From a virus, in IMG/VR virus record IMGVR_UViG_3300047442_000001, positions 1 to 64,000 of that record: a stretch of 64,000 bases of DNA; one strand, 5' to 3'. Shown piece after piece: positions 16,985-62,876 of this stretch (position 1 is its first letter; each line of letters starts with the position of its first letter). A program made the translations under genes and the position numbers. The notes beneath the pieces are model-generated. The model saw only the letters and a list, made by a program, of their open reading frames with translations, was not told the origin of the DNA and did not search any database.

Positions 16985-17206
16985 TCAGCCTTCTTTGTTC
17001 AATTGAATGACGAAGTTGCTGCCGTCGTGACCGATGCTCACTTCGCCGCCGCGGGGCTCGACGAGCAGTTGTCCACTGTTTTCGGATACGAAGATATCGA
17101 CGTATGCGGCTTTGCCGAAGTTGAATCTGACGCCAAGGGCACCTTTCGGTTGATCTTCGAGTTCATTGTCTGCACCGAGGATCAGGGGTCTACGTTTCGC
17201 TTTCAT
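16985..17206 (-). CDS. hypothetical protein
   Basis: 73-aa ORF; AAGGAGAAA RBS; first gene after the promoter at 17251-17279. Confidence 0.55.
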   Translation of the reverse strand: MKAKRRPLILGADNELEDQPKGALGVRFNFGKAAYVDIFVSENSGQLLVEPRGGEVSIGHDGSNFVIQLNKEG

Positions 17207-17250: not shown

Positions 17251-17279
17251 AGAGTAGAAGTGTTGATGACTGAAGTCAA
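17251..17279 (-). promoter_or_regulatory. sigma70-type promoter TTGACT-N17-TACTCT overlapping palindrome ATGACTGAAGTCAA (17266-17279)
   Basis: Minus strand reads GTTGACTTCAGTCATCAACACTTCTACTCT; upstream CTTAAGTAACTTAGCTG is shared with the 27.8-kb promoter. Confidence 0.5.
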
Positions 17280-17287
17280 CAGCTAAG

Positions 17288-20200
17288 TTACTTAAGTCGC
17301 GCCCAGTTGACCGCGAACTTCATCGAAGTCGTGATCTTCACGCCGTTGGGAAGATCGACTGGGTTCATCATGAAGGTCTCGACCGTGGTCGCGGTCACCG
17401 ACCTAGAGACTTCGGTATCGCGGACCTGGAACAGGTTCTCATCGTGGATCGACATCAGGAGCGACGTGCCCACACGGTCCAGCGTCTTCTTTCCTTTGTT
17501 CCACAGATCCGCGAGACCCATCTTCAGCACTTCAGCCGCGGTACATTGAATACGGAAATTGACGGCCTCACGTTCTGCGGCTTCTCTGATGCCGTTGATC
17601 TGCGACCACACGCCCGGGCAGTAACGGATGTGCCCCATGAGCGAGCGCACGTAGCCGTGCTGCCGGGCGAAGGACACGGTCTCTTCGATGTAGTCACCGA
17701 TCCCCGGGAACACTTCGCGAATCCACATCCGAATGAGGTCCGCGCACTCTTCAAGGGTGTACTTCATTCCACGAAGTTCCATCTGCGCCTGAAGTCCGCG
17801 TGGCGTGATCCCGAAGACGATACCGAAGTTGAGGTTCTTCGACGATTCGCGGATATCTGCGTACTTCTTTACGCCAGCTTTGCGGCCTTCGTAGATTTCG
17901 TCGTAGCTCATCGACCACGCTCGGGCGGCTCCGATGATGTGCGGGTCGCGACCTTCGATGAAGGCACGGAGAAGTTCACCGTCGCCGGAGAGCGCGGCCA
18001 GAACGCGGAGCTCGACTTGTTCATAGTCGGCCGAACTCAAGACGAAGCCATCCGGCGCGATGAAGCACTCGCGAATCAAGCGGCCGAGGTCAGCGCCACC
18101 TTTGTTGCGGACCGGGATGTTCTGAAGATTGATCGGATCTCCGGATGCCCAACGAAATGTTGCCGCGGTCGTCGGGCGGATACGTGTGTGAACTCTTCCT
18201 TCTTTGTCGACTAAGCGCGGGATCTTCTCCGCGTACGTGGTCACGAGCTTGTGCCGCGTTCTGTAGTCCAAGATCAACTGAACCGTCGACACGATGTCTT
18301 CGCGGTCGGAATACTTCAGCTTCAACCCTTCCAAGACTTTGTCGTCGGTCGAAGCACGCCTGCCGGACTTCGTCAACTTTTCCGATTGAAGGTCGAAGCT
18401 GAACGTGGGCTCGAAGTCCACTTTGTCTTCGTCCGTGTACGTGAGCTTCCGTTCACCGAAGAGAAGTGCCGCGACTTGGTCCCCAGACGCTGGATTGATC
18501 GGTCGTCCGCAGGCGCGGCGAAGTTGATGAAGGATCTCGTCGTTTTCGCGGCGCAGACGTTTCGCCAAGCGAAGGAGCTTGTCGCAGTCGACCAGCATCC
18601 CGTTGCGTTGGATCTCGGCGGCGGCGGGGATCACCGAGAGATCGATCCGGTAGGCACGACGAAGATCCATTGAATCGATCATCGCGGAGACCTTCGGATA
18701 GATCCTCAGGGTAACGTCTGCGTCACGCGCCGAGTACTGGATAGCGTCGTCGGACGGTATGTCGTCCAAGGTGGGCTCTGGCATCGGCCCAAGTAGCTCC
18801 TCCACAGGACCGCGAACGTCGTCATCCCAGCTCTTCCACCGATCGCGGATCGTTCTCGGTTTCCGTTCGTTGCCTTCGGTCTCGACTGAATCTTCGTCAG
18901 CGTCCGAGTCAGGATCGTCGAACGTGCCCTTCTCGATGTCTTCTTGCAGCTTCCGCAGGTAGCGTCCGATCTCCCATCCGGTACTGATCGACCAGACTCC
19001 GGTGTCCCAGTGGTATTTCGGTTGGCCCGCGCGCGCGGGCCACAGTCCGCCGTCGATGCACGCGGTACAGGCGTCTGTGGACTTTGAACAGGAGCAGAAC
19101 TTGGTCGTATGCTTCTTAGCTCCACTGATTCGACCAAACCCGAGGCACAGATCGCAATTCGGATCGGTGACACGTCGCGTCTCCGCAACTTTGCCGGTTC
19201 CACCGCAGACAGCGCACCGTTTCGCGTCTATGGCTCGTTTGATGTAGCTGAGTGCTAGTCTCCGTTCAGCGGGACGGATGACGTCGTCGTAGGACTGCAT
19301 CGGAACGCCGGCTAGCCGACGACCGTTGGGCTTCAGTCCAAGAGGGAGCAGCCGAAGACAGAAGAGCATGAGCATCGTGTCTTCGACGCGGGACCAGTCC
19401 ACTTCGATCCCAAGTTCCGACAGAATGGGCACGTCGTAGAGGGCATTATGAAAAATTACTCTCCCGGTCCCGGAAACGAGTCTACTGCTCTCCTGCAACG
19501 CAGCACTCTGCACGCTTCGCACGACCCGGGCTCGGCCGGCTTCGGATGCATAGGACAGCCCCCAGACATTTCCAATAACGCCTTCAGTATCAACGGCGAG
19601 CGTTCGCGGACGTAGGCGCGTGTTGCTTCTTTCAATAGATCGGCTGATGTCGGCATCTATGACTTCCTTGTAATCTGGGTGCGGGAACTCGTCGACAACG
19701 GAGAAGGGTTCCAAGTCTCCGTGAACGTAGAGGGAAAGTTGTTGGATGTCCCACCACACCAAGGGCGCGAGCTCGGAGTTGTGGAGTCCGGAAGCTGGGT
19801 GGTAGAGCGGAACGACTAGAATATTCTCCAGCCATCCTTGATCGCTTGGCCAGCGGTCTTCGGCTCCTTCGCCGACGCCACCACTGTCATCTCCGCTCCG
19901 CAGCCGCAGCGGCCCGGACCCGTTCCGATCGAGTGAGTCTCTCCCATCCGAAGGGAGTTGAACGTCCCCAAGTTTGGACACGCGTGCGTGTACTTCGGAT
20001 TCGACGGAACGCAGGTATGGATGTGCGTGCCCGGCGGAAGCCAGAAGAGCGTTTCTGAATTTTCGCTCGACTCCGTCCGCCGTCGACTGCCCCACTCGGG
20101 ACCGCTGTGCTCGTGGTACCACCGCATCCCGTTGCGATCGCAGGAGGCGTCGCACACGTGCTCCGAGCGGGAACGCGAGTCCGTGTGCCGCTTCCATAGT

Positions 20201-20554
20201 AACTTCAGAACCCAGAAGCCAGCGAGCAGCGACCCGGCCCACAGCACCAATCCACTTCGGCCGGACAGTAAGGATTTCTTCGATGATCTCGGGCTCGTCA
20301 CGGGCGATGTCCTCCTTCGACGGTGGTCTTTGTTTACCATTGACTACGGGTGGTTGGATTTTGACTAGGTTGGTGACGCGAATCGTATGACGTGGGAGCC
20401 GGGCGCGGTCCAACATCCGGTTGAGCTCCTTGCCCGACTTCCCGCGTTCACAGAACGGTTGTCCGGTGACGGTTTCCCAGTAGCCTGGAGCTTCGCCGAT
20501 GAGCAAGACTTCGGCGTCGGTGGGACCGTCACTTGGGACACGTCGCGGTTCCAC
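17288..20554 (-). CDS. family A DNA polymerase with 3'-5' exonuclease and N-terminal family-4-type UDG-like domain
   Basis: 1088 aa. UDG motifs GEAPG..GQPF and YHPAS. Exo motifs LAVDTEG, FHNALYDVPIL, YSARDADV. Pol motifs DYEQVELRVLA, KNLNFGIVFG, SIHDENL. Confidence 0.9.
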   Translation of the reverse strand: MEPRRVPSDGPTDAEVLLIGEAPGYWETVTGQPFCERGKSGKELNRMLDRARLPRHTIRVTNLVKIQPPVVNGKQRPPSKEDIARDEPEIIEEILTVRPKWIGAVGRVAARWLLGSEVTMEAAHGLAFPLGARVRRLLRSQRDAVVPRAQRSRVGQSTADGVERKFRNALLASAGHAHPYLRSVESEVHARVSKLGDVQLPSDGRDSLDRNGSGPLRLRSGDDSGGVGEGAEDRWPSDQGWLENILVVPLYHPASGLHNSELAPLVWWDIQQLSLYVHGDLEPFSVVDEFPHPDYKEVIDADISRSIERSNTRLRPRTLAVDTEGVIGNVWGLSYASEAGRARVVRSVQSAALQESSRLVSGTGRVIFHNALYDVPILSELGIEVDWSRVEDTMLMLFCLRLLPLGLKPNGRRLAGVPMQSYDDVIRPAERRLALSYIKRAIDAKRCAVCGGTGKVAETRRVTDPNCDLCLGFGRISGAKKHTTKFCSCSKSTDACTACIDGGLWPARAGQPKYHWDTGVWSISTGWEIGRYLRKLQEDIEKGTFDDPDSDADEDSVETEGNERKPRTIRDRWKSWDDDVRGPVEELLGPMPEPTLDDIPSDDAIQYSARDADVTLRIYPKVSAMIDSMDLRRAYRIDLSVIPAAAEIQRNGMLVDCDKLLRLAKRLRRENDEILHQLRRACGRPINPASGDQVAALLFGERKLTYTDEDKVDFEPTFSFDLQSEKLTKSGRRASTDDKVLEGLKLKYSDREDIVSTVQLILDYRTRHKLVTTYAEKIPRLVDKEGRVHTRIRPTTAATFRWASGDPINLQNIPVRNKGGADLGRLIRECFIAPDGFVLSSADYEQVELRVLAALSGDGELLRAFIEGRDPHIIGAARAWSMSYDEIYEGRKAGVKKYADIRESSKNLNFGIVFGITPRGLQAQMELRGMKYTLEECADLIRMWIREVFPGIGDYIEETVSFARQHGYVRSLMGHIRYCPGVWSQINGIREAAEREAVNFRIQCTAAEVLKMGLADLWNKGKKTLDRVGTSLLMSIHDENLFQVRDTEVSRSVTATTVETFMMNPVDLPNGVKITTSMKFAVNWARLK

Positions 20555-25403: not shown

Positions 25404-26091
25404 CTATGGCGTTGGTGACGATCATCGACCAGTTCTCTTCGAGCTCGATCCGGGTGAACTCTATGTCGTAACGTACCGTCGTCGAGTCCCGCGTCGTGAG
25501 ACCGTAGTCCCCTTCGACGAAACAACCGTCTATGCGCCCCACCAAAGTATCCAAGAGAAAGCAGTACCCTTTGACTTGGTAAATCCACCCGGGGATGCCG
25601 GCGCTGATGTGCTCATACCCACTTAGCTCCTTCTGCGGGACTCCGCCGAAGGGAATGAACACGTCGCCGCCCGCAGACCGTAGAGACTTCTTTGTGAACT
25701 TCCACTCTAGATAGCACCAGTCGAAGACCATGACCGCGTCCGGAGTCGCGAAGATGCCGTGGTGACCGTGGCGCAGACAGTGGAGCTCGGACTTCTCGCG
25801 GCCCCACAGAACACGTGAACATTCGACGCACCACATCAACTGCCCCGGTCGCATGAGCCCTGAACGGTGGCCGGACAGGTCGACCTCGATCGCTTGACGC
25901 GCCATGACGCGCTCCCACACGAAGCCGGAGAGAAAGTTCGCCTGTGTGGTGACTGAAGACTGGTCCGCGTAGTCCTTGTTGACGATGTACTCGATGACCG
26001 AAGAAAGGTGGCAGCCGAGGGAACGTGGAACGTTGAAGTCGAACGAATAGCGGTCCGCGTCGACTTGGAAGATGGAACGGGTCACGAGCAC
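25372..26091 (-). CDS. PD-(D/E)XK nuclease (phage exonuclease / Cas4-like)
   Basis: 239 aa; GTG start after AAGGAA; ATPDAV...YLEWKFTKKS fits D..ExK; Cys/His cluster CVEC..C..HGH. Confidence 0.55.
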   Translation of the reverse strand: MLVTRSIFQVDADRYSFDFNVPRSLGCHLSSVIEYIVNKDYADQSSVTTQANFLSGFVWERVMARQAIEVDLSGHRSGLMRPGQLMWCVECSRVLWGREKSELHCLRHGHHGIFATPDAVMVFDWCYLEWKFTKKSLRSAGGDVFIPFGGVPQKELSGYEHISAGIPGWIYQVKGYCFLLDTLVGRIDGCFVEGDYGLTTRDSTTVRYDIEFTRIELEENWSMIVTNAIDGGLLDATAV

Positions 26092-26096
26092 GTTCC

Positions 26097-26372
26097 TTAG
26101 TCCTCCAGACGGTAGTCGCCGGGTAGATCCACGCTGACAGTGATCCTGATCGGCTGGAGAGGCTTGTTGAATGTCATCACATCGGTGTAGATGTCACCGG
26201 ACCATAGAACGCGAAGTCGCTCAATCCAGCTCAATCTCCACCGCGTCAACCGCCTACCATGCAACGGATCACCTACCGGCAGAGTAGATAACGGGAGGTA
26301 CTCCGGTTGGTCCTTGGCGTAGACAATCTGGCGTTCTTCGTATCCGACAATTACTGGCGATTCCGGAGTCAT
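26097..26372 (-). CDS. hypothetical protein
   Basis: 91-aa ORF; GGAGAGG RBS. Confidence 0.5.
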   Translation of the reverse strand: MTPESPVIVGYEERQIVYAKDQPEYLPLSTLPVGDPLHGRRLTRWRLSWIERLRVLWSGDIYTDVMTFNKPLQPIRITVSVDLPGDYRLED

Positions 26373-26508
26373 TTCTGGTACCTCTCCCCTTGATCGAAGT
26401 GCTCCGGTGCCCGTCCACGTTTGCTCTGAACGTTGATAGGCTCACAGTCGCCGGACCGGCTGACCACTCGACGGCGGTATGGGCCGCGCCGCCGAGTTCC
26501 TTGACTAC

Positions 26509-26814
26509 TTAGTCGTCGTCTTCGTCGTCGTCTTCGGTGAGGGTGGCCGCGTCGGCGTTGACCGCTTCGATCGCCTGGTACTCGTCCGCCAGACGCCGGA
26601 GCGTCGCCGGGACCGTGCGACCACGGACCGCGAGACCGTCGACTTCCTTCGCGGTGCCGAGCCACTTCGATCCCATGTTCCCTTGCTCGAGCTGCTGGTC
26701 CTTCGATAAGGGGACCACGATGAAGGTGAAGCGCTTCGCCTTCGCCTTGGGCTTCGACTTCGACTTCGGTGCTGGCGCCGACTTCTGTGTTTTCGTCTTC
26801 GCTTTCGTCGTCAT
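26509..26814 (-). CDS. hypothetical protein, basic N-terminus and poly-acidic C-terminal tail
   Basis: 101 aa; N-terminal ...APKSKSKPKAKAKR, C-terminal ...TEDDDEDDD. Confidence 0.5.
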   Translation of the reverse strand: MTTKAKTKTQKSAPAPKSKSKPKAKAKRFTFIVVPLSKDQQLEQGNMGSKWLGTAKEVDGLAVRGRTVPATLRRLADEYQAIEAVNADAATLTEDDDEDDD

Positions 26815-26819
26815 GACGT

Positions 26820-27650
26820 TCAGTCCTTCGCCTTCCGGATGGTGCCCTTCTTCTCGTTGTAGCTGAGCCCCTCGATCGAGCCAATCCAGTCGTCGTTGTC
26901 GAAAAGGCTCATGATCTCTTTGTTGTCATCGTCTTCCTTGAGAGCTTTCTTGTTCGCGGCGATCACTTCAGGAATGGTGACCGAGTCGTCGTCGGACTCG
27001 GCGAGCGTCGACTTGATCATCTTCGCGGCGCGGTTCTGGATGGACTTCGACGGGAGGTCATCCGACGACGTCGTCTTGGACTTCGACTTCGGTTCGTCTT
27101 CGTCCACCGCAGCGGTGGACTTCTTCTTCGACGCTGCCGCGGCTGAAGACTTTCCGCCGGGGAGCTTGAAGATCTCGGTGATCAACATGATCGGGAACTT
27201 GTCGCCTTCCTTCCGCGGCTTCCCGGCTACGTTCGCTTCGGTGCCCACCAGCGCTCTGACGTCACCGGAAGCAAGCTTCCGTGCGCTGAACCCCTGCGCG
27301 ACGGCTGACGCAAGGAGCTGTCCGAAGTCCGAGGTCATATCAATGGTGTACGGCTTCCCTTCTTCGCGGCCGGAGACCGCGTACCCGACTTCGGCTTCGT
27401 CGGCGTCTTCGTCTGCGGTCGCGCGGATGCACGCGTACTGCGCGTTGCCGATCGTGTAGCGTGGGACCACGGTACCGCCTTCGGACTTCTCCCACGTGAC
27501 GTGGGCTTCGATCAGGGTGAAGGGCTTGTTGTCCTTCTTGGCGACTCCGGAGTGGTACTTGAGAACGACGTCGGTGATGGTGGCGCGGCCACCGTCCCAT
27601 TTTCCGGAGCCGAAGTCTTCCGGGGAGAGTGATGTGATTGGACCTGGCAT
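26820..27650 (-). CDS. hypothetical abundant early protein (possible DNA-binding)
   Basis: 276-aa ORF; AAGGAAGGAAG RBS; first gene after the 27.8-kb promoter, with a long leader. Confidence 0.6.
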   Translation of the reverse strand: MPGPITSLSPEDFGSGKWDGGRATITDVVLKYHSGVAKKDNKPFTLIEAHVTWEKSEGGTVVPRYTIGNAQYACIRATADEDADEAEVGYAVSGREEGKPYTIDMTSDFGQLLASAVAQGFSARKLASGDVRALVGTEANVAGKPRKEGDKFPIMLITEIFKLPGGKSSAAAASKKKSTAAVDEDEPKSKSKTTSSDDLPSKSIQNRAAKMIKSTLAESDDDSVTIPEVIAANKKALKEDDDNKEIMSLFDNDDWIGSIEGLSYNEKKGTIRKAKD

Positions 27651-27814
27651 CTTGATTTCTTCCTTCCTTGGCTGCTTGGTTACTTGGTTGTGTGGTGGAT
27701 GAGAGCGTGGATGTGAACGTTGAATGAAGGGACTGGACTGAAGTGATCGTGGACTGGCGGTCTAAGGAGACCGGGACCGTTGATCAAAGTGGGGATTGAA
27801 CATATGAAGTGCGG

Positions 27815-27843
27815 AGAATGGCACAGGATGTGACTTCAGTCAA
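27815..27843 (-). promoter_or_regulatory. promoter TTGACT-N17-CATTCT overlapping palindrome GTGACTTCAGTCAAC (27830-27844)
   Basis: Minus strand reads CCTTAAGTTAGCTGTTGACTGAAGTCACATCCTGTGCCATTCT, inside the 314-nt gap 27651-27964. Confidence 0.45.
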
Positions 27844-27964
27844 CAGCTAACTTAAGGTACAATCCTCATTTAGGGGATCAGCCGTTGCGTCGTGAAGTGC
27901 ATTCCGAAGACGAAGGGTCGTCAGGATTCGCGACGGAGGCGGCGAGCCAACGGTGCCGACCTTT

Positions 27965-28180
27965 TCACCCTTTCGGTCGAACACGGGTCGCGATCCCTGC
28001 TTCTGCGCGTAGCTCCATCCGAATACCCGCAACGATGTCCGCTGCTTCGCCGTGAATCCAACCAGACCCACCGCAGGACGCGCATTGAAATGCGAAGCCG
28101 TCTGCGCACCGTTGAACGCCGCCTTTGCAGTTAGTGCAGCGCTCGCAACGCACAACGTCTCCGCACGTGCAGCCTCTCAT
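27965..28180 (-). CDS. small Cys-rich protein with DnaJ-type CxxCxGxG zinc-finger motif
   Basis: 71 aa; CERCTNCKGG...CASCGGSGW. Confidence 0.5.
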   Translation of the reverse strand: MRGCTCGDVVRCERCTNCKGGVQRCADGFAFQCASCGGSGWIHGEAADIVAGIRMELRAEAGIATRVRPKG

Positions 28181-28440
28181 TTCTGCTTCGCTTCATCGCT
28201 TAACGTTAGTGACGCATCGCCTTCGCTGAGTATCCTGAACGCGACGGCCATCACCTGAATCGCTTCCTTCCGCACCTGCTGCGGTCCGAGTTGCTGCATT
28301 TGTGCGCACGCCAGCTCACCGCACTCTTCCATGAGCGCGGCGGTCAGGTTGAAGTGATTCGGGAACTTTGCACGAGCGCGAAGGACTTCGGACGCGAGAT
28401 CTTCGATCACATCGACTGGAATAGTCAACGTAGCTAGCAT
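28177..28440 (-). CDS. MazG-like all-alpha NTP pyrophosphohydrolase (tentative)
   Basis: Frame 28177..28563; ATG 28440 after AAGGAG; LMEECGELA...RKEAIQVMAVAF. Confidence 0.45.
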   Translation of the reverse strand: MLATLTIPVDVIEDLASEVLRARAKFPNHFNLTAALMEECGELACAQMQQLGPQQVRKEAIQVMAVAFRILSEGDASLTLSDEAKQK

Positions 28441-28460
28441 TTTAGGCTTCTCCTTTTGAT

Positions 28461-30110
28461 CTACGTGGTTACCACCAGCGGCTCGGGAATCGACCGCACC
28501 CACACGAGTGCTTCGTTGAAACTCTTCGTTGCGTACTTGGTGGCGTATCGCGGCAGCGCCCACCGGGCGTGGTCGTCGATGACGATCACTTCGCCCCAGT
28601 CGTCAACCGAACGAACGTGCCGCCCGGCGGATTGAACTAAGGACTGCATCATCATCTTGTTTCCGACGTCCGGGTCGACTTCCTTCCTTCGTTTCATGAC
28701 CAGCGAAGTACCGTTGGGGAAGGGGAGCTTCGGAACTAATATCCAGCGGCACTGGTCGTCGGGGAAGTCTTCGCCTTGGGTGACTGAAGGCGACACCAAG
28801 ATCAGAGGCCCCTTCGGATCGCGGAACCGAAGCAGAGTTTCTTTGGTCTCGCGGCTGTCCGCATTTCCGATCATGTGTCCGCGGTACCGCGACAGCTCGA
28901 GGATACGCCGCGCGCGTTCGTAACTGACGCAGTGGATGATTCCCTTGCGGCCGAGTTCCAAGCGGCTTCGGATAGTAGCGTCGATGCGGCTGATCCACAT
29001 CCGTTCGCTGAACTCGTCCATGTGACGGTCGACGCGCACCTGAGGTTCAAGTAGAACGACGTAGACAGGTCGCCGTTGAACCGGGAACGAAGACGGGTAC
29101 TCGACGACTTCGCAACTCTGCACGGGAACGCCGAGACGGGGGAGTTCAAACTTGGACATTGTTGCGGAAAGGAATAGCACCGACTTGGCGCCGCGGTAAA
29201 GAAGCGACTCGCAACGGTCCGCCGGCCACACGGGCTCGAACTTCACCGCGTCGCGGCGGCGTACCCGGTCGAGCTCGGAGCTAACGACCCAGTCTTCATC
29301 TATGCCGCTGAGCTGAGTCAAGGACTCTTTGATCGAACGAAGGCTCGACGACAGTTTCGATACTTCCGAAGTGAGACCGGTCCGTGACACTTGACGCTTG
29401 AGCCGCTTCGAGAGGTCGACGACCAGGTCCAAAGACCGCCCCGCCCACTTCGTCCAGTCTTCGGTCGACGCCGCAACTGGGAGGACAGGAACGCCCACGG
29501 CACTTCGGAACTCGTCTGGATAAAGCGTCACGGTCAGGGCGTCGCACACCCGGTCCGCGGCGTCGTGGGATTCGTCGCACACGATGTGGTCAAAGTTCCC
29601 AAGGACCTCTTCGCTTCGCCCTGCGGCGACAGCTTTCCCGAGCGTCAGCCAAAAGGAATAGTTGGTCGACACGATCTTCGATTCCGCCGCCACCTTTACC
29701 GAGTCGAAGTAGTCGCAGCCGCCATTCAACATTGAACAGTAGATGCCACTGTGGCATGGCGCCCGGTCGACCGTCGTCCCGTGGGCTCGGTAGTGTTCTA
29801 GCCACCCTGCCGCTTTGACCGCGTTGCAGACGTAGTTCTGCTGACCGCGGACGTCGTAGAGCGAAGGGGCGAAGTCGTCGCGGTACACGTCTTCCAAGGA
29901 ACGATTGGAAGTAAGGATCAACGTGCGACCACCGTCCGAAGAGGCGAAATGAGAAGACCAAGCAAGTAGAGTTTTCCCCGAGCCCGTGGGAGCTAAGGTG
30001 AACTTGAAGCGGAAGTCAGACGCCTGAAGTCGGTACCAAGCGTCGAGCTGATCGCGGCGCCAGTCGATGAACTTGGCTGGGGCGCCCAGCGTTGAAGGAG
30101 AGAAGGTCAT
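28461..30110 (-). CDS. XPD/DinG-family (Rad3-like) DNA helicase with putative FeS-cluster Cys set
   Basis: 549 aa; Walker A APTGSGKT; DExH box IVCDESHD; four Cys between them (YVCN...APCHSGIYCSMLNGGCDYF); C-terminal GEDFPDD..ILVPKLPFP. Confidence 0.8.
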   Translation of the reverse strand: MTFSPSTLGAPAKFIDWRRDQLDAWYRLQASDFRFKFTLAPTGSGKTLLAWSSHFASSDGGRTLILTSNRSLEDVYRDDFAPSLYDVRGQQNYVCNAVKAAGWLEHYRAHGTTVDRAPCHSGIYCSMLNGGCDYFDSVKVAAESKIVSTNYSFWLTLGKAVAAGRSEEVLGNFDHIVCDESHDAADRVCDALTVTLYPDEFRSAVGVPVLPVAASTEDWTKWAGRSLDLVVDLSKRLKRQVSRTGLTSEVSKLSSSLRSIKESLTQLSGIDEDWVVSSELDRVRRRDAVKFEPVWPADRCESLLYRGAKSVLFLSATMSKFELPRLGVPVQSCEVVEYPSSFPVQRRPVYVVLLEPQVRVDRHMDEFSERMWISRIDATIRSRLELGRKGIIHCVSYERARRILELSRYRGHMIGNADSRETKETLLRFRDPKGPLILVSPSVTQGEDFPDDQCRWILVPKLPFPNGTSLVMKRRKEVDPDVGNKMMMQSLVQSAGRHVRSVDDWGEVIVIDDHARWALPRYATKYATKSFNEALVWVRSIPEPLVVTT

Positions 30111-30475
30111 ACTGCGGAATCGATCAACGTCAGCACGGCACGGAGTCTGTCGGCGACACCTTTAATCAGATCCCGCAACTCATCGTAGTGGTGCGCTTCT
30201 CGGACTTCGGAGATCTCCCTCTCGGTACGAGCACCGAAGAATTCGACTGTTGTCATTCCGTACACGTCAAGGATGCGAAGGAGCTGTGAGATCTTCAGCG
30301 ATCCGATGCGCTGACCAGTCTCGAAGGAGCTGATCGTCTTCTCACCAAGACTGGTCTGTGCCGCGAGCGCTTTCTGAGTTAAACCGCGGAGCTTGCGTAG
30401 CTCGCGTAGGCGCAAAACCACATCCACCGACAGTTGGAGCTCATGGGCTTCGTTGGATCGTTCAATCGTGGGCAT
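30107..30475 (-). CDS. XRE-family helix-turn-helix regulator
   Basis: 122 aa; LRGLTQKALAAQTSLGEKTISSFETGQR; stop overlaps helicase start (ATGA). Confidence 0.75.
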   Translation of the reverse strand: MPTIERSNEAHELQLSVDVVLRLRELRKLRGLTQKALAAQTSLGEKTISSFETGQRIGSLKISQLLRILDVYGMTTVEFFGARTEREISEVREAHHYDELRDLIKGVADRLRAVLTLIDSAV

Positions 30476-30493
30476 GGCGGGTTCTCCTCTGAG

Positions 30494-30524
30494 ACGGAAA
30501 ACGCAGCGGGGCGGCCGCTGCGTT
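30494..30524 (-). terminator. rho-independent terminator candidate
   Basis: 10-bp perfect stem AACGCAGCGG/CCGCTGCGTT (30500-30524), 5-nt loop, followed on the minus strand by TTTTCC. Confidence 0.6.
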
Positions 30525-30547
30525 CACGTCACCTTCAGCTTCGCTCC

Positions 30548-31042
30548 TTAGAACGGAACTTCTTCGTCGTCGTCTTCCGGCTTCGGTTCTTCGACCGGTC
30601 CCGTGGGCTCGGTGGGCTCGGTCGGTGCCGCCGGTCCCGGTCCTGTGGACTCCGGAACGGTGGGCTCCGGGATCGGGTTGCTGGCATCCTTCCCCATCCC
30701 GTCGAGAGTGGACGCTGCCGCGGTCAACTGCGACGTGTGCGTCCGAATGCGGCCGGCGATCACCTGAGCACGGGACTCCTGTTCTGGGGACACGGTCCCT
30801 TCGCCGGAGTCCTTGATCGACGCGATCAGCTCGGCGACCAAGTCGCCGGTCTGTGAGACTTCGGTCGCCAGGTTGTTGAGCGCCGCAGCCTGGGCGCTGG
30901 TGGCGACTTCGTACAGATCGTTGAGTTCCGAAACTTTCAATTTCAATCTCCAAATCAAATAAGTAAGGTAGATGAGGACAGATGTGTTGACGGACGTCAG
31001 AATGAGGAGTGCGACGAGAGCAGCGAAGATGTTGTTGTTCAA
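30548..31042 (-). CDS. membrane-anchored coiled-coil protein with SSB-like acidic C-terminal tip
   Basis: 164 aa; TTG start; N-terminal TM IFAALVALLILTSV..IYLTYLIW; C-terminus ...PEDDDEEVPF. Confidence 0.55.
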   Translation of the reverse strand: MNNNIFAALVALLILTSVNTSVLIYLTYLIWRLKLKVSELNDLYEVATSAQAAALNNLATEVSQTGDLVAELIASIKDSGEGTVSPEQESRAQVIAGRIRTHTSQLTAAASTLDGMGKDASNPIPEPTVPESTGPGPAAPTEPTEPTGPVEEPKPEDDDEEVPF

Positions 31043-31085
31043 AGTTTCATGGTGCGTACGGACCTCCTTGGTTCAGTCTTCAACC

Positions 31086-31124
31086 TTCAATCTTCGTCTT
31101 CAGTCATTCAATCTTCGTCTTCAG
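31086..31124. repeat. 18-bp perfect direct repeat, 21-bp period
   Basis: TTCAATCTTCGTCTTCAG at 31086-31103 and 31107-31124; the second copy encodes the C-terminal PEDED-stop of gene 31108..31752. Confidence 0.7.
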
Positions 31125-31752
31125 GCTCAGTGGACTTAGGTACGCGACCTTGGACCGTGAGCCCAGTGATCGATCCTTGCTTCAGAAGGTCGCCATGGAC
31201 CGCGCGGATCTCGCGTTCAAAGATGTTCCGGTATTCGTCGTCCTTCGGGAGCCTTCGGACGATGTCCAGAACTCGGCGCACGGTCTCAGCGGCTGTCTTC
31301 TTCGCGCCGTTCGCCAGGTGGGCGTAGATCGAGTTCCGCGTCGCTTGAATGTGTCGTATGAACCCAAGCCGCGTCTCGGTCGCTGCGTTCTCATGCCCTA
31401 TGGCGACCATGATGCCCACGTTCGACGGGTGGTCCTCCGGAGGGTCCAAGCGCTCGCGAAGGTCCATCATCAGCACGATCGCGGTCCGGATGAACTGGCC
31501 GCGGTCGTCGAAGTCGCGGGTTTCGTCCAAGTGCCGGTCGAGCTCGGCGACCAGGTAAGGTGGCGCGTCGAAGCTGATCCGCTGCGGGAACCCTTTGTCG
31601 TCGCGTGTCGGGTACCGAGTTTCCAAGATCGAAAGGTCGGGGCGTACTGAGGGGTTCGTGTATGACTTCGGATGTTCTTCGGTCGAATCGGTATGGGACG
31701 ACTCGGATCTGGACTTTGGTCGTCTCCGTCGCGAAGCTGGTCTGGTTGGCAC
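31108..31752 (-). CDS. hypothetical protein with ribbon-helix-helix-like segment
   Basis: 214 aa; RISFDAPPYLVAELDRHLDE..DRGQFIRTAIV. Confidence 0.45.
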   Translation of the reverse strand: MPTRPASRRRRPKSRSESSHTDSTEEHPKSYTNPSVRPDLSILETRYPTRDDKGFPQRISFDAPPYLVAELDRHLDETRDFDDRGQFIRTAIVLMMDLRERLDPPEDHPSNVGIMVAIGHENAATETRLGFIRHIQATRNSIYAHLANGAKKTAAETVRRVLDIVRRLPKDDEYRNIFEREIRAVHGDLLKQGSITGLTVQGRVPKSTEPEDED

Positions 31753-31796
31753 CCGACTACCTTCCTTCTCTTATCGACGCAGGAACGCTGGCCGAT

Positions 31797-31997
31797 CTAC
31801 TCATCGTCGTAGACCTCCATTACGATTTGTTCATCAGCTATTCCCGCGAGCTCACCGATCTCCTGAAACGCACAGGACTCGCAGTAGTCGAGTTTCTGCA
31901 CTGAACCGTCGATGATGTTTCCGTTCTTGTCTTTGCCCGCCACCTCGATCTCGAAATCGGCGGTTCTTCCGCAGTTGGCGCAAACTCGATCGCTCAT
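31797..31997 (-). CDS. small zinc-ribbon protein
   Basis: 66 aa; CANCG...CESC; GGAG RBS. Confidence 0.5.
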   Translation of the reverse strand: MSDRVCANCGRTADFEIEVAGKDKNGNIIDGSVQKLDYCESCAFQEIGELAGIADEQIVMEVYDDE

Positions 31998-32045
31998 TCA
32001 GATTACTCCGATGCTGCCAGACGTGACCTTGGACTGTTGGGGTGG

Positions 32046-32075
32046 ATCGTAACCGTTGAACGTGACTGGAGTCAA
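32046..32075 (-). promoter_or_regulatory. promoter TTGACT-N18-TACGAT overlapping palindrome GTGACTGGAGTCAAC (32062-32076)
   Basis: Minus strand reads GTTGACTCCAGTCACGTTCAACGGTTACGAT, upstream of gene 31797..31997. Confidence 0.45.
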
Positions 32076-32082
32076 CTGCGAA

Positions 32083-32109
32083 ATTGATCAATGTGTTGAC
32101 TACTTGACT
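32083..32109 (+). promoter_or_regulatory. operator/promoter cluster: palindrome ATTGATCAAT plus two TTGACT boxes
   Basis: ATTGATCAAT at 32083-32092; TTGACT at 32096-32101 and 32104-32109. Confidence 0.4.
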
Positions 32110-32157
32110 GCGTTGGATGACTCGTGTCACCATCACCGTCCGGAGAACCTAAGGTCG

Positions 32158-32604
32158 ATGCCCACTTCAGCTTCAGCCTCACTTCAGTCTTCAGCGGCCA
32201 ACTCCGGACCCAGCCACCGTGACCACGACCGCGACCGTCAACGTCAGCGTATCGTGCCACCGAAGCCGAAGCGTCCGCGCGTTCATTCTACGCGAATCGT
32301 GGAGCCGAAGTCCGGTCCCGAGCCCGCCGACGTCCGCGCCGACGCCGGAGTCGAAGAGGAACCGAAGTGCTGCTGGTGTCACGGCACTGGAGCCGAGCCC
32401 AAGATCCCCGACGTCACCGCCATCAGCCAGTCGGCGATGTCGAAGGGCACGGGCGTGTCGCCGAGCCTAGTGAGCTTGATTAACTCGGGAAAGCGAAAGA
32501 ACCCGACCTTGGACACGATGAGAAAGTTCCAGCGGTTCCTTCACGCCGAGACCGGTCAGAGGTTACCGCTGGACATTATCGCGGCGATCTTCGACGGCGC
32601 CTGA
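32158..32604 (+). CDS. HTH (XRE/Cro-like) regulator, divergent from the leftward genes
   Basis: Frame 32056..32604; the TTG 32056 start lies inside the operator, so ATG 32158 preferred; C-terminal ISQSAMSKGTGVSPSLVSLINSGKRKNPTLDTMRKF. Confidence 0.5.
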   Translation: MPTSASASLQSSAANSGPSHRDHDRDRQRQRIVPPKPKRPRVHSTRIVEPKSGPEPADVRADAGVEEEPKCCWCHGTGAEPKIPDVTAISQSAMSKGTGVSPSLVSLINSGKRKNPTLDTMRKFQRFLHAETGQRLPLDIIAAIFDGA

Positions 32605-34632: not shown

Positions 34633-34650
34633 TCGCCGAACTTGCGGCGG

Positions 34651-36107: not shown

Positions 36108-36143
36108 TTAACTTCGAGAATGCTGCCGGAATCGGCGCACGTT

Positions 36144-37279: not shown

Positions 37280-37288
37280 CGCTACCTC

Positions 37289-38138: not shown

Positions 38139-38152
38139 ATGATCCATGCTCC

Positions 38153-38181
38153 TTCATTCGATGACTGAAGTCAACTACAAT
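38153..38181 (+). promoter_or_regulatory. divergent control site: palindrome ATGACTGAAGTCAAC (38161-38175) abutting TACAAT (38176-38181)
   Basis: TACAAT ends 7 nt before ATG 38189 and there is no SD, so the geometry is leaderless. Confidence 0.45.
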
Positions 38182-46068: not shown

Positions 46069-46096
46069 ATCATATGCCTTTCTTGACTGAAGTCAA
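46069..46096 (-). promoter_or_regulatory. leftward promoter TTGACT-N16-TATGAT overlapping palindrome TTGACTGAAGTCAA (46083-46096)
   Basis: Minus strand reads TTGACTTCAGTCAAGAAAGGCATATGAT; would give a ~290-nt leader before ATG 45768. Confidence 0.5.
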
Positions 46097-46395
46097 GTGG
46101 TCGTGATGACTTTAGTCAACAATCTTCACTTCGCAAGTTATCCAAGGTGAAACCTGCTTAAGTGGTCACGTGAACGTTGACTTCTGGCGCGACCTGTGAT
46201 CCGAGTTCACTTCGCCACTTAACACTTGACTTCTGAGCCCAACGTCCGACCGAAACAGTCAACGGGACTGATACATTTTGTACCACTTAGCTACTTACTT
46301 CCACAGCCACCTCAGCGAAGATCAACCGTCCGTGCGGACGTCAACTAGTTGACATTCAACCGGTAGCACTTCGGTTACCGGTAACAGTACGCAGC

Positions 46396-46750: not shown

Positions 46751-46780
46751 TTGACTAGAGTCACGGTCGTACAGTAAGCT
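46751..46780 (+). promoter_or_regulatory. rightward promoter TTGACT-N18-TAAGCT, leaderless geometry
   Basis: The -10 box ends 7 nt before ATG 46788; no SD; a second TTGACT at 46744. Confidence 0.5.
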
Positions 46781-49815: not shown

Positions 49816-50058
49816 GTGGGCTACACGACCCAGCCCACCGACCACATCCTGGTCTTCGAGCTTGGCTCCTTCACCTTCGGGCTGATCTACGACCCTCGTA
49901 CACGTCTGGTGCGCCGCGCTCCACCGGTCGCGAAGAAGTGGCTCCACCGGCACATCGAAGACGCGATCGAACACTACCGCGGTCGCGGTGCGGTCATCCG
50001 TCACGAGTCCGATGAAACCATCGAGCCCTTAACCACTTCAATCAAAGTTGTTGACTGA
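49816..50058 (+). CDS. hypothetical protein
   Basis: 80-aa ORF; GTG start; its stop codon lies inside the palindrome at 50051. Confidence 0.45.
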   Translation: MGYTTQPTDHILVFELGSFTFGLIYDPRTRLVRRAPPVAKKWLHRHIEDAIEHYRGRGAVIRHESDETIEPLTTSIKVVD

Positions 50059-50080
50059 AGTCAATCGTCCGGTTTACCAT
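50051..50080 (+). promoter_or_regulatory. promoter TTGACT-N18-TACCAT overlapping palindrome TTGACTGAAGTCAA (50051-50064)
   Basis: Read directly, upstream of gene 50109. Confidence 0.45.
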
Positions 50081-52523: not shown

Positions 52524-52657
52524 ACCTCCCTTCAGCTTCGTCGCGCAACAGCACTCCGCCCCGTTCGTGCAGACACACTTTCGGGCTTCGGAAGTTTCCG
52601 CTGTGATCAAGTCCACACGTTGACTACTTCGCTCACTTCGGTGACGATGACGCGCAC

Positions 52658-54817: not shown

Positions 54818-55093
54818 GTACCGCGACTTAGATCACCGGCTGAAGCGTCGAATTTCCCATCGCTTGCCGGTCCTTACTTCCTTCCATGCTCGCGATGGCG
54901 GACACCACGGGTTCCAAGGTGGAAGAAGGTCAATTAGTGAACTAAGTCGCTGCCACCACGTCAGCTCGACGATCACCACGGTAGCGCGGCCGAAGATGAC
55001 GTCGAGTACATCTCTCCTTAGCTCTTCGTCTTCGGCTTCGTTCACGCGGCGGAGTCTACACCCACCGGATGGATCGTGAATGTAGTAAACAAG

Positions 55094-55123
55094 TTGACTT
55101 TCATCTAGTCAATGCCCGATCAT
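55094..55123 (+). promoter_or_regulatory. promoter TTGACT-N18-GATCAT, leaderless geometry; TTGAC-N9-GTCAA inverted repeat at 55094-55112
   Basis: The -10 box ends 7 nt before ATG 55131; no SD. Confidence 0.45.
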
Positions 55124-62787: not shown

Positions 62788-62847
62788 CTTCACCCACTGC
62801 GTTCACTTCAGTCACCGTTTACCGTCTCCGTGAATATAGTCAAGGTG

Positions 62848-62876
62848 TTGACTTCTTTCTCTGTTGTGCCCACACT
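62848..62876 (+). promoter_or_regulatory. promoter candidate TTGACT-N17-CACACT with AGTCAA-N4-TTGACT inverted repeat (62838-62853)
   Basis: Read directly in the gap after the tailspike-like gene. Confidence 0.35.

What the first reader, a model, noticed from the sequence alone, without database searches (positions are those of the whole stretch)
17266..17279. Recurrent 14-bp palindrome (A/T/G)TGACT-NN-AGTCA(A/C) at seven module boundaries
Copies read directly:
- ATGACTGAAGTCAA, 17266-17279
- GTGACTTCAGTCAAC, 27830-27844
- GTGACTGGAGTCAAC, 32062-32076
- ATGACTGAAGTCAAC, 38161-38175
- TTGACTGAAGTCAA, 46083-46096
- GATGACTTTAGTCAAC, 46105-46120
- TTGACTGAAGTCAA, 50051-50064
All lie in intergenic regions or gene junctions. 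In each, one half-site doubles as a TTGACT -35 box. Looser relatives occur at 55094-55112, 62838-62853 and 46592-46603. The 17.27- and 27.83-kb copies also share the upstream block CTTAAGT..TAGCTG. This looks like the operator set of a single phage regulator controlling host-sigma70-type promoters.
Basis: seen in the sequence. Interest (0 to 1): 0.7.

Follow-up and report, generated by a model that had tools for sequence, protein, structure and literature searches.

The report
Phage promoters with a built-in operator
The repeated palindrome is real: it marks a set of ordinary bacterial-type promoters in an uncultured soil phage, and each promoter carries a two-fold symmetric protein-binding site fused to its -35 box, so this is most likely one regulator's on/off switch for the phage's early and middle genes.

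Summary
TGACTNNAGTCA occurs 8 times, against 0.09 expected. All eight lie between genes.

The motif is directional. TTGACT always reads towards the downstream genes. Five of the 8 sites have a strict TAnnnT -10 box 16-18 nt downstream, against a 1% background, and some feed leaderless genes. So these are sigma70-type promoters, and the extra "nnAGTCA" completes a dyad.

Partly sequenced relatives (portal 46-50% identical, helicase 44-47%) carry the same device at orthologous promoters, with lineage-specific right halves. One phage has AGTCCA at every site and a perfect TGGACTATAGTCCA. That pattern points to a co-evolving dimeric DNA-binding protein rather than RNA polymerase alone.

A variant box sits 4 nt upstream of the -35 box at the structural-gene promoters.

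The best candidate regulator is a conserved Xre-like helix-turn-helix protein (32158-32604). It is transcribed in reverse and sits next to one of the sites. Binding has not been shown.

Verdict: this is a new example of a well-known kind of system, a phage operator set embedded in host-type promoters. The lineage is novel. Interest is moderate to low.

The parts
17266..17279 (-). Class A promoter-operator. On the - strand it reads GTTGACTTCAGTCAT, with the -35 box TTGACT at 17279-17274 and the -10 box TACTCT at 17256-17251 (17-nt spacer). It drives 16985-17206 and the genes downstream, just after the stop codon of the DNA polymerase gene.
27830..27844 (-). Class A promoter-operator, GTTGACTGAAGTCAC on the - strand. 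The -10-like hexamer is CATTCT at a 17-nt spacer. It lies upstream of 26820-27650. Relatives L081, L082, L083, L084 and L086 all have the orthologous promoter.
32062..32076 (-). Class A promoter-operator, GTTGACTCCAGTCAC on the - strand, with the -10 box TACGAT at 32051-32046 (18-nt spacer). It drives 31797-31997, 31108-31626 and onward to the helicase. It lies in the divergent region shared with the Xre-like gene.
32118..32129 (+). Degenerate dyad TGACTCGTGTCA (1 mismatch). It overlaps the spacer and -10 region of the putative promoter of 32158-32604 (TTGACT at 32104-32109, 18-nt spacer, CACCAT). It could be an autoregulatory site.
   Evidence: promoter reading is inference from the sequence
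38161..38175 (.). Dyad in the 41-nt divergent gap. On the - strand it reads GTTGACTTCAGTCAT. On the + strand it fills the spacer of TTCATT-17 nt-TACAAT (38176-38181), which is followed 7 nt later by the ATG at 38189, so that gene is leaderless.
   Evidence: orthologous sites L081 5178, L082 2619, L084 5875, L086 5113
46083..46096 (-). Class A promoter-operator and a perfect 14-nt dyad, TTGACTGAAGTCAA. The -10 box TATGAT is at 46074-46069 (16-nt spacer). This is the leftward promoter of the long - strand gene block.
46105..46120 (-). A second dyad (GTTGACTAAAGTCAT on the - strand), centred 23 bp upstream of the 46084 dyad. It forms a tandem operator pair and has no -10 box of its own.
46751..46764 (+). 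The -10 box TAAGCT is at 46775-46780 (18-nt spacer), followed 7 nt later by the ATG at 46788 (leaderless). This is the rightward promoter of the + strand gene block.
50051..50064 (+). Class A promoter-operator, TTGACTGAAGTCAA, with the -10 box TACCAT at 50075-50080 (18-nt spacer). It lies upstream of the conserved gene 50109-50930. The orthologous promoter in relative L003, at 3696, reads TTGACTCCAGTCCA.
52610..52625 (+). Class B box AGTCCA-cacg-TTGACT in front of the 719-aa gene 52658-54817, which is terminase-like by its position next to the portal gene. The -10-like hexamer is GACGAT.
55077..55099 (+). Class B box: a degenerate dyad TGAATGTAGTAA, then 5 nt (acaag), then the -35 box TTGACT at 55094-55099. 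The -10 box is GATCAT (18-nt spacer), followed 7 nt later by the ATG at 55131 (leaderless). It lies upstream of the genes before the portal gene.
62831..62853 (+). Class B box: TGAATATAGTCA (1 mismatch from the dyad), then 5 nt (aggtg), then the -35 box TTGACT at 62848-62853. The -10-like hexamer is CACACT. It lies upstream of the capsid-side operon. The dyad-to-(-35) spacing is the same in relatives L003 and L005.
32158..32604 (+). Best candidate regulator: a 148-aa protein with a CxxC motif followed by an Xre-type helix-turn-helix (predicted helices 86-96 and 102-110). It is transcribed against the surrounding - strand block. Homologues occur in all six helicase-side relatives and are always reverse-oriented next to a TTGACT promoter region.
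31108..31626 (-). Second candidate: a conserved 172-aa protein whose N-terminus looks like a ribbon-helix-helix. That reading is by eye only; there is no family hit. It lies downstream of the 32063 promoter, after the small gene 31797-31997.
30107..30475 (-). Third candidate: a clear Xre/Cro-type helix-turn-helix protein of 122 aa. A homologue was found in only one relative (L083).

Best explanation
The eight copies are the -35 regions of sigma70-type promoters that start the early and middle transcription units of an uncultured phage of about 66 kb. In each, the -35 hexamer TTGACT is also the left arm of a 12-bp dyad, TGACT-nn-AGTCA. That dyad is the binding site (operator) of a dimeric, phage-encoded DNA-binding protein. 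The dyad spans roughly -35 to -23 and is centred near -28.5, so a bound dimer would occlude sigma region 4 and switch the promoter off. One protein could therefore silence seven transcription units together, either as an early-to-late shut-off in lytic growth or as a silencing repressor. A related box lies 4 nt upstream of the -35 hexamer (dyad centre near -46.5) at three structural-gene promoters that have weaker -10 boxes. There the same or a related protein may help RNA polymerase instead. What is shown: non-random occurrence, intergenic location, orientation, -10 boxes, conservation, and lineage-specific change in relatives. What is inferred: that a protein binds, that binding represses, that the late boxes activate, and that the protein is the Xre-like product of 32158-32604.
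For: Enrichment: 8 copies against 0.09 expected. All 8 are intergenic, in a genome that is 13.8% non-coding.

Promoter evidence: the left arm is GTTGACT in 7 of 8 copies and always points to the downstream genes. The right arm is only AGTCA followed by A, C or T, so the two arms are under different constraints. A strict TAnnnT follows at 16-18 nt in 5 of the 10 TTGACT reads of the palindromes, against 0 of 39 other TTGACT hexamers and a 1.1% background. The independent promoter scan picks out 46096(-), 50051(+) and 55094(+). Three leaderless arrangements (-10 box, 7 nt, ATG) occur at 46788, 55131 and 38189.

Relatives: the phage represented by L003 and L081 has TTGACTNNAGTCCA 6 times exactly, plus 2 one-mismatch copies that include a perfect TGGACTATAGTCCA, against about 0.05 expected per locus. 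It has none of the window's type, and the window has none of the AGTCCA type. L082, L083, L084, L086, L005, L080 and L079 carry their own variants at orthologous promoters.

Spacing at the late promoters: the dyad starts 18 nt before the start of the -35 hexamer in the window, L003 and L005. AGTMMA-N4-TTGACT occurs at 4 sites against 0.03 expected.

Candidate regulator: the protein family of 32158-32604 is the only protein conserved in all helicase-side relatives that shows any sequence-specific DNA-binding signature. The evidence is Pfam HTH_3 at E=1.5e-3, profile hits in PDB to HigA and to a phage immunity repressor at E about 0.06, and the JGI name 'Xre family regulator'. It is always reverse-oriented beside a TTGACT promoter region. 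Its predicted recognition helix is S-x-S-L/M-V/I/L-S in the phages with AGTCA or AGGCA operators. In the one phage with AGTCCA operators it is DLSSVAK.
Against: No binding or transcription data exist, and the host is unknown. The helix-turn-helix assignment for 32158-32604 falls below Pfam's cut-off (19 against 23 bits), and the single-sequence AlphaFold model is low-confidence (pLDDT 59). Relative L087 has a homologue with a typical recognition helix but no TTGACT dyads in the 21.6 kb fetched, which weakens the link between this protein and the operator. The conserved half-sites are centred only 7 bp apart, which is short for a classical helix-turn-helix dimer. It is seen in MqsA and in ribbon-helix-helix heptad binders (my own knowledge), so a ribbon-helix-helix protein such as 31108-31626 is not excluded. 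In L082, L083, L084 and L086 the promoter upstream of the homologue of 26820-27650 has AGGCA or AGACA, which breaks the symmetry. Two of the eight sites (38162 on the - strand, and 46107) have no -10 box in the TTGACT orientation. The gene map is from my own simple caller, and only 10 kb either side of two anchor genes was available for each relative.
Confidence: 0.7

Rival explanations
1. This is a pure promoter element. The whole 13-nt TTGACTnnAGTCA is read by RNA polymerase itself, either through a host sigma with extra contacts just downstream of the -35 box or through a phage-encoded sigma-like or sigma-appropriating factor. On this view it marks a phage-specific promoter class and is a positive signal, not an operator.
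For: The motif is strictly co-oriented with transcription and sits at a fixed distance from the -10 boxes. In some relatives the right arm is not symmetric (AGGCAA, AGACAA). The right arm changes lineage by lineage, as would be expected if hosts or polymerase factors differ.
Against: Free-standing perfect dyads occur away from any -35 role, with the non-(-35) half-site on both arms (TGGACTATAGTCCA at L003 8552). Tandem dyads occur without their own -10 box (46107). The central 2 nt vary while both arms stay fixed, which is the signature of a two-fold symmetric binder. No sigma or RNA polymerase domain was found in the roughly 39 window proteins scanned against Pfam, 10 of them also against PHROGs; the scan was not exhaustive. 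Sequence-specific polymerase contacts at -29 to -24 are not known (my own knowledge).
Confidence: 0.12
2. The dyad is the box of a host global regulator that the phage has borrowed, for example a CRP/FNR-type dimer, whose boxes have the same 5-N4-5 layout (TTGAT-N4-ATCAA). Phage gene expression would then be tied to host physiology.
For: Read as TTGAC-N4-GTCAA, the site has the layout of CRP/FNR-family boxes (my own knowledge). With one mismatch allowed there are 14 matches against 2.1 expected. No phage protein has been shown to bind. The half-site variants could track different hosts.
Against: The outer T/A of that 14-mer is not conserved on the non-promoter arm. The dyad centres lie near -28.5 and -46.5, not at the -41.5 or -61.5 typical of that family (inference). 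A conserved, reverse-oriented phage helix-turn-helix gene sits beside the sites in every relative that has them.
Confidence: 0.1
3. The copies are recombination or linker sequences at module boundaries, or replication or packaging signals, and the resemblance to promoters is incidental.
For: The copies sit at junctions between gene blocks whose content differs among relatives. Three copies flank a 740-nt ORF-free region that is rich in repeats and could be an origin.
Against: The -10 boxes, the orientation and the leaderless starts are not explained. The sequences flanking the 12-13 nt core are not conserved between copies, except at 17.27 and 27.83 kb. A hairpin with a 5-bp stem and a 2-nt loop cannot form as an RNA or cruciform signal. 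Short shared promoters may promote exchange between phages, but only as a by-product.
Confidence: 0.03

Closest known systems
Lambdoid / 434-type operators bound by Xre-family (Cro/CI) helix-turn-helix dimers (own knowledge)
   Same: Short dyad-symmetric operators (14 bp in 434) overlap the -35 or -10 box of sigma70 promoters. The regulator gene is transcribed divergently from the genes it controls. Tandem operators occur, as at 46084 and 46107. Whether a site represses or activates depends on its position, as with CI at OR2 and PRM.
   Different: Here the operators are spread over at least 7 transcription units rather than two clusters. The conserved half-sites are only 7 bp apart. No integrase or other lysogeny gene was found among the proteins scanned. 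The proteins show no detectable sequence similarity to isolate phages.
Multi-copy dyad repeats of actinobacteriophages: the Cluster O 17-bp TGTTCGGNNNCCGAACA repeat (PMC4351075) and the phiC31 conserved inverted repeats bound by its repressor (own knowledge)
   Same: Many copies of one short palindrome are scattered through intergenic junctions of a phage genome. In Cluster O they occur together with SigA-like promoters and leaderless mRNAs.
   Different: The Cluster O repeat has more than 30 copies, is not fused to the -35 box, and has no known function. Here there are 8 copies, and each one is itself a -35 region.
Mycobacteriophage Cluster A 'stoperators' (own knowledge)
   Same: One repressor site is repeated across the genome, with an orientation tied to the direction of transcription.
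   Different: Stoperators are asymmetric 13-14-mers that lie inside transcribed regions and block elongation. The motif here is symmetric and sits at the promoter.
phi29 p4 and other single-protein early-off/late-on switches (own knowledge)
   Same: One phage protein would occlude the early promoters and assist a late promoter from an upstream site. The two site positions seen here (-28.5 and -46.5) could work the same way.
   Different: The sequences and folds are unrelated, and the dual role here is only an inference from site geometry.
MqsA-type antitoxins (zinc-binding domain plus Xre helix-turn-helix, binding ACCT-N3-AGGT) (own knowledge)
   Same: A cysteine motif precedes an Xre-type helix-turn-helix, and the palindrome has half-sites centred about 7 bp apart.
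   Different: Only one CxxC pair is conserved. There is no toxin partner and no significant sequence match.

Membership tests
Sigma70-type (housekeeping) bacterial promoter | A -35 hexamer close to TTGACA | tested here: met
   TTGACT (5 of 6 positions) is present in all 8 copies on the strand facing the downstream genes.
Sigma70-type (housekeeping) bacterial promoter | A -10 hexamer TAnnnT, 16-18 nt downstream of the -35 hexamer | tested here: met
   Five of 8 sites have a strict match (TACTCT, TACGAT, TATGAT, TAAGCT, TACCAT), and one more has CATTCT. Other TTGACT hexamers score 0 of 39, and the background is 1.1%. The same holds in relatives.
Sigma70-type (housekeeping) bacterial promoter | Transcription starts 6-8 nt after the -10 box | not testable with these tools
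   The only indirect support is three cases where an ATG lies exactly 7 nt after the -10 box, at 46788, 55131 and 38189.
Phage repressor/regulator operator set | Dyad symmetry with a variable centre | tested here: met
   TGACT-nn-AGTCA is exact in all 8 copies, with central dinucleotides GA, TC, GG, GA, GA, TT, AG and GA.
Phage repressor/regulator operator set | Sites overlap core promoter elements of the regulated genes | tested here: met
   The left arm is the -35 box. At 38162 the dyad fills the spacer of the + strand promoter.
Phage repressor/regulator operator set | The site co-evolves with a trans-acting factor (concerted change of all sites in a lineage) | tested here: met
   The right half is AGTCCA at all 8 sites of the L003/L081 phage, with one further mismatch at L081 8276-8289, and AGTCA at all 8 sites of the window, with no cross-occurrence.
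Phage repressor/regulator operator set | A cognate DNA-binding protein binds the sites | not testable with these tools
   There are only candidates: 32158-32604, 31108-31626 and 30107-30475.
Xre-family helix-turn-helix regulator (for the product of 32158-32604) | A significant match to an Xre/Cro-type helix-turn-helix domain model | tested here: inconclusive
   Pfam HTH_3 scores E=1.5e-3 and 19 bits, below the 23-bit cut-off. A profile of three homologues hits HigA and a phage immunity repressor in PDB at E about 0.06. JGI names it 'Xre family'. The AlphaFold model has the expected helices but a pLDDT of 59.
CRP/FNR-type host regulator box | A 5-N4-5 palindrome centred near -41.5 (or -61.5 and so on) | tested here: not met
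   The centres lie near -28.5 (class A) and -46.5 (class B). The outermost base is not conserved on the non-promoter arm.
Intrinsic terminator / RNA hairpin | A stable stem-loop followed by a run of T | tested here: not met
   The stem would be 5 bp and the loop only 2 nt, with no T run. The terminator scan does not call any copy in 46000-64000 (the scan of 26000-46000 failed). There is no Rfam match.
Cluster A-type stoperator | An asymmetric site inside transcribed regions | tested here: not met
   The site is symmetric and lies at promoters.

The most novel reading that the evidence does not exclude
One small phage protein runs the whole temporal programme of a previously undescribed soil phage lineage through the position of its site alone. 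Where the dyad is fused to the -35 box (centre about -28.5), it shuts off seven early and middle operons. Where a weaker variant lies 4 nt upstream of the -35 box (centre about -46.5), at structural-gene promoters with poor -10 boxes, it turns those promoters on. The half-site of the protein has converged on the host -35 hexamer, so that operator and promoter are the same DNA, and it has drifted in sister phages (TGGACT), which gives each phage a private regulatory code.
Probability: 0.2. Interest if true: 0.5.

Novelty: new member of a known kind. Interest (0 to 1): 0.35.

Why it matters
The finding gives a ready-made promoter and operator map for a phage lineage with no cultured member, no known host and almost no annotated genes: seven early and middle promoters, three or four late ones, and several leaderless starts. 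The promoter consensus (TTGACT, 16-18 nt, TAnnnT, leaderless mRNAs) is a clue to the host's transcription machinery. The paired operator variants in sister phages (AGTCA against AGTCCA) are a natural specificity swap. They could be used to identify the regulator and to build orthogonal repressor/promoter pairs. It does not change any general concept, because operators embedded in sigma70 promoters are textbook phage biology.

Tried and rejected
- Nucleotide search of the polymerase region against 50,697 phage records found no match.
- Protein searches of the two candidate regulators against the same records found none.
- The closest isolates, Tunturiibacter phages, share only a portal at 23% identity. 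Tunturi_1 has no comparable dyads, and its paper does not discuss promoters.
- The polymerase gene as an anchor in IMG/VR found nothing. The portal profile in IMG/VR and in JGI metagenomes gave mostly relatives at 24-33% identity that lack the motif; only L005 was useful.
- The GTDB genome scan gave one 7-kb contig from a Binatia metagenome-assembled genome, which says nothing reliable about the host.
- The Rfam scan of the whole window gave no hits.
- My first gene caller, a 5th-order Markov model, over-fitted and was replaced.
- One promoter scan failed because of the size limit.
- The word-index homologue search with the Xre-like protein returned only the protein itself. No alignment was therefore allowed for structure prediction, and both single-sequence models were too poor for fold search.
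- PDB profile searches for the 31108-31626 and 38189-39019 families gave nothing meaningful.
- I considered and rejected a restriction or methylation target. Such sites are avoided rather than enriched, and they would not be oriented or placed at promoters.
- I considered and rejected an RNA hairpin, because the loop would be only 2 nt.
- I considered and rejected recent duplication of one promoter, because the flanking sequences differ between copies.
Full report
**1. The observation**

- An exact search for TGACTNNAGTCA finds 8 copies: 17267, 27831, 32063, 38162, 46084, 46107, 46752 and 50052. 100 dinucleotide-preserving shuffles give a mean of 0.09 and never more than 1.
- With one mismatch allowed there are 14 matches against 1.9 expected.
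The copy at 46752-46763 was missed.
- I built a gene map with a self-trained codon-periodic model. By that map 13.8% of the window is non-coding, and all eight copies lie in gaps between genes or on a gene's last codons.

**2. What genome this is**

- The window has about 60% G+C.
- It carries virion genes at both ends, including a portal gene at 56719-58653.
- A long block of - strand genes holds the replication functions: a DNA polymerase A fused to a uracil-DNA-glycosylase domain (17288-20554), a Rad3/DinG-like helicase (28461-30110), an ERCC4 nuclease and a NADAR protein.
- A + strand block starts at 46788.
- The exact portal protein is found on a 66.2-kb contig of the public run SRR26077936 and on a 66.3-kb JGI contig.
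- The end of the window continues into its start in relatives, so the window is a permuted, nearly complete phage genome.
- It has no nucleotide match among 50,697 phage records. Its nearest isolates, podoviruses of the acidobacterium Tunturiibacter, share only a portal at 23% identity.
- No integrase was seen among the roughly 39 window proteins scanned against Pfam, 10 of them also against PHROGs.
- The host is unknown.

**3. The motif is directional and sits on promoters**

- Listing every TTGACT in context shows that each palindrome reads (G)TTGACTnnAGTCA on the strand that points to the downstream genes. Five of the six copies in the - strand block read this way on the - strand only, and 46084 is symmetric. 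46752 reads it on the + strand only. 50052, in the + strand block, is also symmetric.
- The arm facing upstream is GTTGACT in 7 of 8 copies. The other arm is only AGTCA followed by A, C or T. The two arms are therefore under different constraints, as expected if one arm is also a -35 hexamer.
- A strict TAnnnT lies 16-18 nt downstream in 5 of the 10 TTGACT reads of the palindromes: TACTCT, TACGAT, TATGAT, TAAGCT and TACCAT. It is found after 0 of 21 other intergenic TTGACT hexamers, after 0 of 18 coding ones, and at 1.1% of random positions.
- A sixth site has CATTCT.
- The tool's own stricter promoter scan picks out 46096(-), 50051(+) and 55094(+).
- At 46752 the -10 box TAAGCT is followed after 7 nt by the ATG of 46788-47012.
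- At 38162 the dyad fills the 17-nt spacer of TTCATT/TACAAT on the + strand, and the ATG of 38189-39019 follows 7 nt after the -10 box.
- The same "-10 box, 7 nt, ATG" geometry occurs at 55131. These are leaderless arrangements.
- 46107 has no -10 box. Its centre lies 23 bp upstream of the 46084 dyad, so the two form a tandem pair.

**4. Relatives**

The portal and helicase were used as anchors. For each relative I could fetch 10 kb either side of the anchor from public assemblies.

| Relative | Similarity to the window | Motif found |
|---|---|---|
| SRR28401767_62844 (loci L003 and L081) | portal 49%, helicase 46% | No TGACTNNAGTCA. TTGACTNNAGTCCA six times exactly, plus TTGACTCCAGGCCA and a perfect free-standing palindrome TGGACTATAGTCCA; about 0.05 expected per locus |
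| The window itself | - | No AGTCCA form |
| L082 | - | TTGACTnnAGTCACGG twice, and TTGACTGGAGGCAAT |
| L083 | - | TTGACTnnAG(G/A)CAAT, and TTGACTGCGGGCAAC |
| L084, L086 | - | A 3-nt gap: TTGACTGGCAGTCAA, TTGACTGGGAGTCAA, TTGACTGGGAGGCAC |
| L005 | - | TTGACTATAGTCAA, and TTGACTAGCGTCAA twice |
| L080 | - | TTGACTGCAGTCAC and two near variants |
| L079 | - | GGACTTTAGTCAA, 5 nt before a TTGACC -35 box |
| L087, L002, Tunturi_1 | more distant | No such dyads in the parts fetched |

- The sites are positionally orthologous. They lie upstream of the homologues of 26820-27650, upstream of the 31108-31626 family, in the divergent gap next to the 38189-39019 family, and upstream of the 50109-50930 family.
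- Most of the sites in relatives also have TAnnnT at 17-18 nt.
- A change of the non-promoter arm at every site within one lineage, while the promoter arm stays TTGACT, is what is expected of a site that co-evolves with a dedicated two-fold symmetric binding protein.
- The free-standing TGGACTATAGTCCA shows that in that phage the preferred half-site is not the -35 hexamer itself.

**5. A second arrangement at the structural-gene promoters**

- In front of the capsid-side operon the window has TGAATATAGTCA-aggtg-TTGACT. L003 has TGACTATAGTCC-actgc-TTGACT and L005 has TGACTATAGTCA-attgg-TTGACT. The distance from the start of the 14-nt dyad to the start of the -35 hexamer is 18 nt in all three.
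- The same layout precedes the leaderless gene 55131 (TGAATGTAGTAA-acaag-TTGACT).
- As a half-box, it also precedes the terminase-like gene (AGTCCA-cacg-TTGACT).
- AGTMMA-N4-TTGACT occurs at 4 sites against 0.03 expected, and the longer TGAAT box is found at two sites.
- These promoters have weaker -10 hexamers (GATCAT, CACACT, GACGAT) than the class A promoters.
- With a 17-18 nt spacer the dyad centre is near -28.5 in class A and near -46.5 in class B. This is arithmetic on the sequences, not a measurement.

**6. Which protein binds**

- *32158-32604.* Two proteins are conserved in the helicase-side relatives that carry the motif, and only this family shows a sequence-specific DNA-binding signature.
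  - Pfam HTH_3 scores E=1.5e-3, below the cut-off.
  - A three-sequence profile hits HigA, a phage immunity repressor and other Xre-type proteins in PDB at E about 0.06.
  - JGI calls it an Xre-family regulator.
  - A low-confidence model shows the expected helices.
  - It has an invariant CxxC before the helix-turn-helix.
  - In every relative it is transcribed against the flow of the surrounding genes, next to a TTGACT promoter region.
  - In the window its own putative promoter (TTGACT at 32104, 18-nt spacer, CACCAT) is overlapped by a one-mismatch dyad, TGACTCGTGTCA. This is my reading of the sequence.
  - Its predicted recognition helix is SPSLVSL in the window, SASLISR in L082, STSLISR in L083 and SASMLSR in L084/L086. 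In the AGTCCA phage alone it is DLSSVAK. That is suggestive, but it rests on a handful of genomes.
  - L087 has a typical helix yet no dyads were seen.
- *31108-31626.* This family looks to me like a ribbon-helix-helix protein. It has no database support.
- *30107-30475.* This clear Xre protein has a homologue in L083 only.
- *37848-38138 and 48747-49307.* These have no detectable homologues in the relatives.
- The conserved half-sites are centred 7 bp apart. That is short for a classical helix-turn-helix dimer, but it is seen with MqsA-type Xre proteins and with ribbon-helix-helix proteins that bind heptads (my own knowledge). The fold of the binder is therefore open.

**7. Mechanism and rivals**

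| Explanation | Weight |
|---|---|
| Host-type promoters with an embedded operator | about 0.7 (that a dedicated dimeric protein binds) |
| The entire 13-mer is read by RNA polymerase or a phage sigma-like factor | 0.12 |
| The dyad is a borrowed host regulator box | 0.10 |
| Recombination or replication signals | 0.03 |

- *Embedded operator (best).* A dimer on the dyad would clash with sigma region 4 and repress. The upstream boxes at late promoters could recruit polymerase. Within this explanation I give about 0.6 that the protein is phage-encoded and about 0.35 that it is the product of 32158-32604.
- *RNA polymerase reads the whole 13-mer.* This fits the orientation and some asymmetric variants. 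It does not fit the free-standing perfect dyads, the tandem dyad without a -10 box, or the variable centre.
- *Host regulator box.* The layout resembles CRP/FNR boxes, but the positions are wrong, and a conserved phage helix-turn-helix gene sits beside the sites.
- *Recombination or replication signals.* These do not explain the -10 boxes or the orientation.
- A hairpin is excluded by the 2-nt loop, and Rfam finds nothing.

**8. Comparison with what is known**

- The system works like the operator sets of lambdoid and 434-type phages.
- It also resembles the multi-copy dyads of actinobacteriophages. Cluster O phages carry more than 30 copies of TGTTCGGNNNCCGAACA, separate from their SigA-like promoters, with unknown function (PMC4351075). 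The phiC31 inverted repeats and the Cluster A stoperators are further examples (my own knowledge).
- It differs in that the dyad is fused to the -35 hexamer of nearly every early and middle promoter. It also differs in having a second, fixed upstream position at late promoters.
- None of the proteins involved has a detectable relative in isolate phages.
- I file it as a new member of a known kind.

**9. Limits**

- The gene calls are my own.
- Only two windows of about 22 kb each could be read per relative.
- Structure predictions were single-sequence and poor.
- No experiment was possible.

Noticed in passing
whole window, e.g. 30603-30619, 18405, 57279: The octamer GTGGGCTC occurs 24 times against 2.4 expected. 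Every copy is inside coding sequence. Seventeen are on the + strand and 7 on the - strand, whichever way the gene runs. It might be a Chi-like or otherwise polar signal, or a codon/peptide effect (a TEPTEP repeat at 30.6 kb accounts for three copies).
   Followed up: partly
26501, 32096, 46396, 46416, 52620 (all + strand): TTGACTACTT occurs 5 times against 0.04 expected. All copies are intergenic and all are on the + strand, including two inside the - strand gene block. 46416 reads TTGACTACTTAGTCAA, which has the same half-sites with a 4-nt gap. This may be a second regulator's site or a third promoter class. One copy sits just upstream of the Xre-like gene.
   Followed up: partly
46120-46750: About 630 nt have no plausible ORF and are packed with short repeats: CTTAGCTACTTCGGTCC-like four times, GTCAACGTnTkGACTACTT three times, GTCAACTAGTTGAC, and GGACTGAAGTCC. 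The region lies between the divergent leftward and rightward promoters. It may be an origin or a regulatory hub. There is no Rfam hit.
   Followed up: partly
46788, 55131, 38189; L003 801 and 8570; L081 5155: Several genes start exactly 7 nt after a -10-like hexamer and have no Shine-Dalgarno sequence, so their mRNAs would be leaderless. Other genes have clear GGAG or AAGGAG sites. This is a possible clue to the host.
   Followed up: partly
17280-17297 and 27844-27856 (+ strand), also 46157, 46286, 46445, 46563, 46586, 46639: A second short motif family, CTTAAGT / CTTAGCTAC(TT), lies just upstream of the -35 box at the 17.27 and 27.83 kb promoters and is repeated in the large intergenic region. 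The related 7-8-mers GGCTAAG(T) and CTTAGCTC are 4-10-fold over-represented across the genome, including inside genes.
   Followed up: no
17288-20554; L083 14423-17278: The DNA polymerase A carries an N-terminal uracil-DNA-glycosylase-superfamily domain. In relative L083 the homologue is interrupted by an intein with a LAGLIDADG endonuclease.
   Followed up: no
L087 (SRR20363648_2906), intergenic regions: This more distant relative lacks the TTGACT dyads but has a recurring GTTAGAC / GTAGACT motif shortly upstream of several genes. It may use a different promoter or regulator code.
   Followed up: no
46005-46073 to 45769 (- strand): The leftward promoter at 46084 is followed by about 290 nt without a convincing ORF before the first - strand gene at 45768. 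This could be a long leader or a small RNA.
   Followed up: no
L084 1177-4147, L086 42-3081: Two relatives carry adjacent glutamine amidotransferase-like (GATase_6) and amidoligase (Amidoligase_2) genes in the early region. The window has neither.
   Followed up: no
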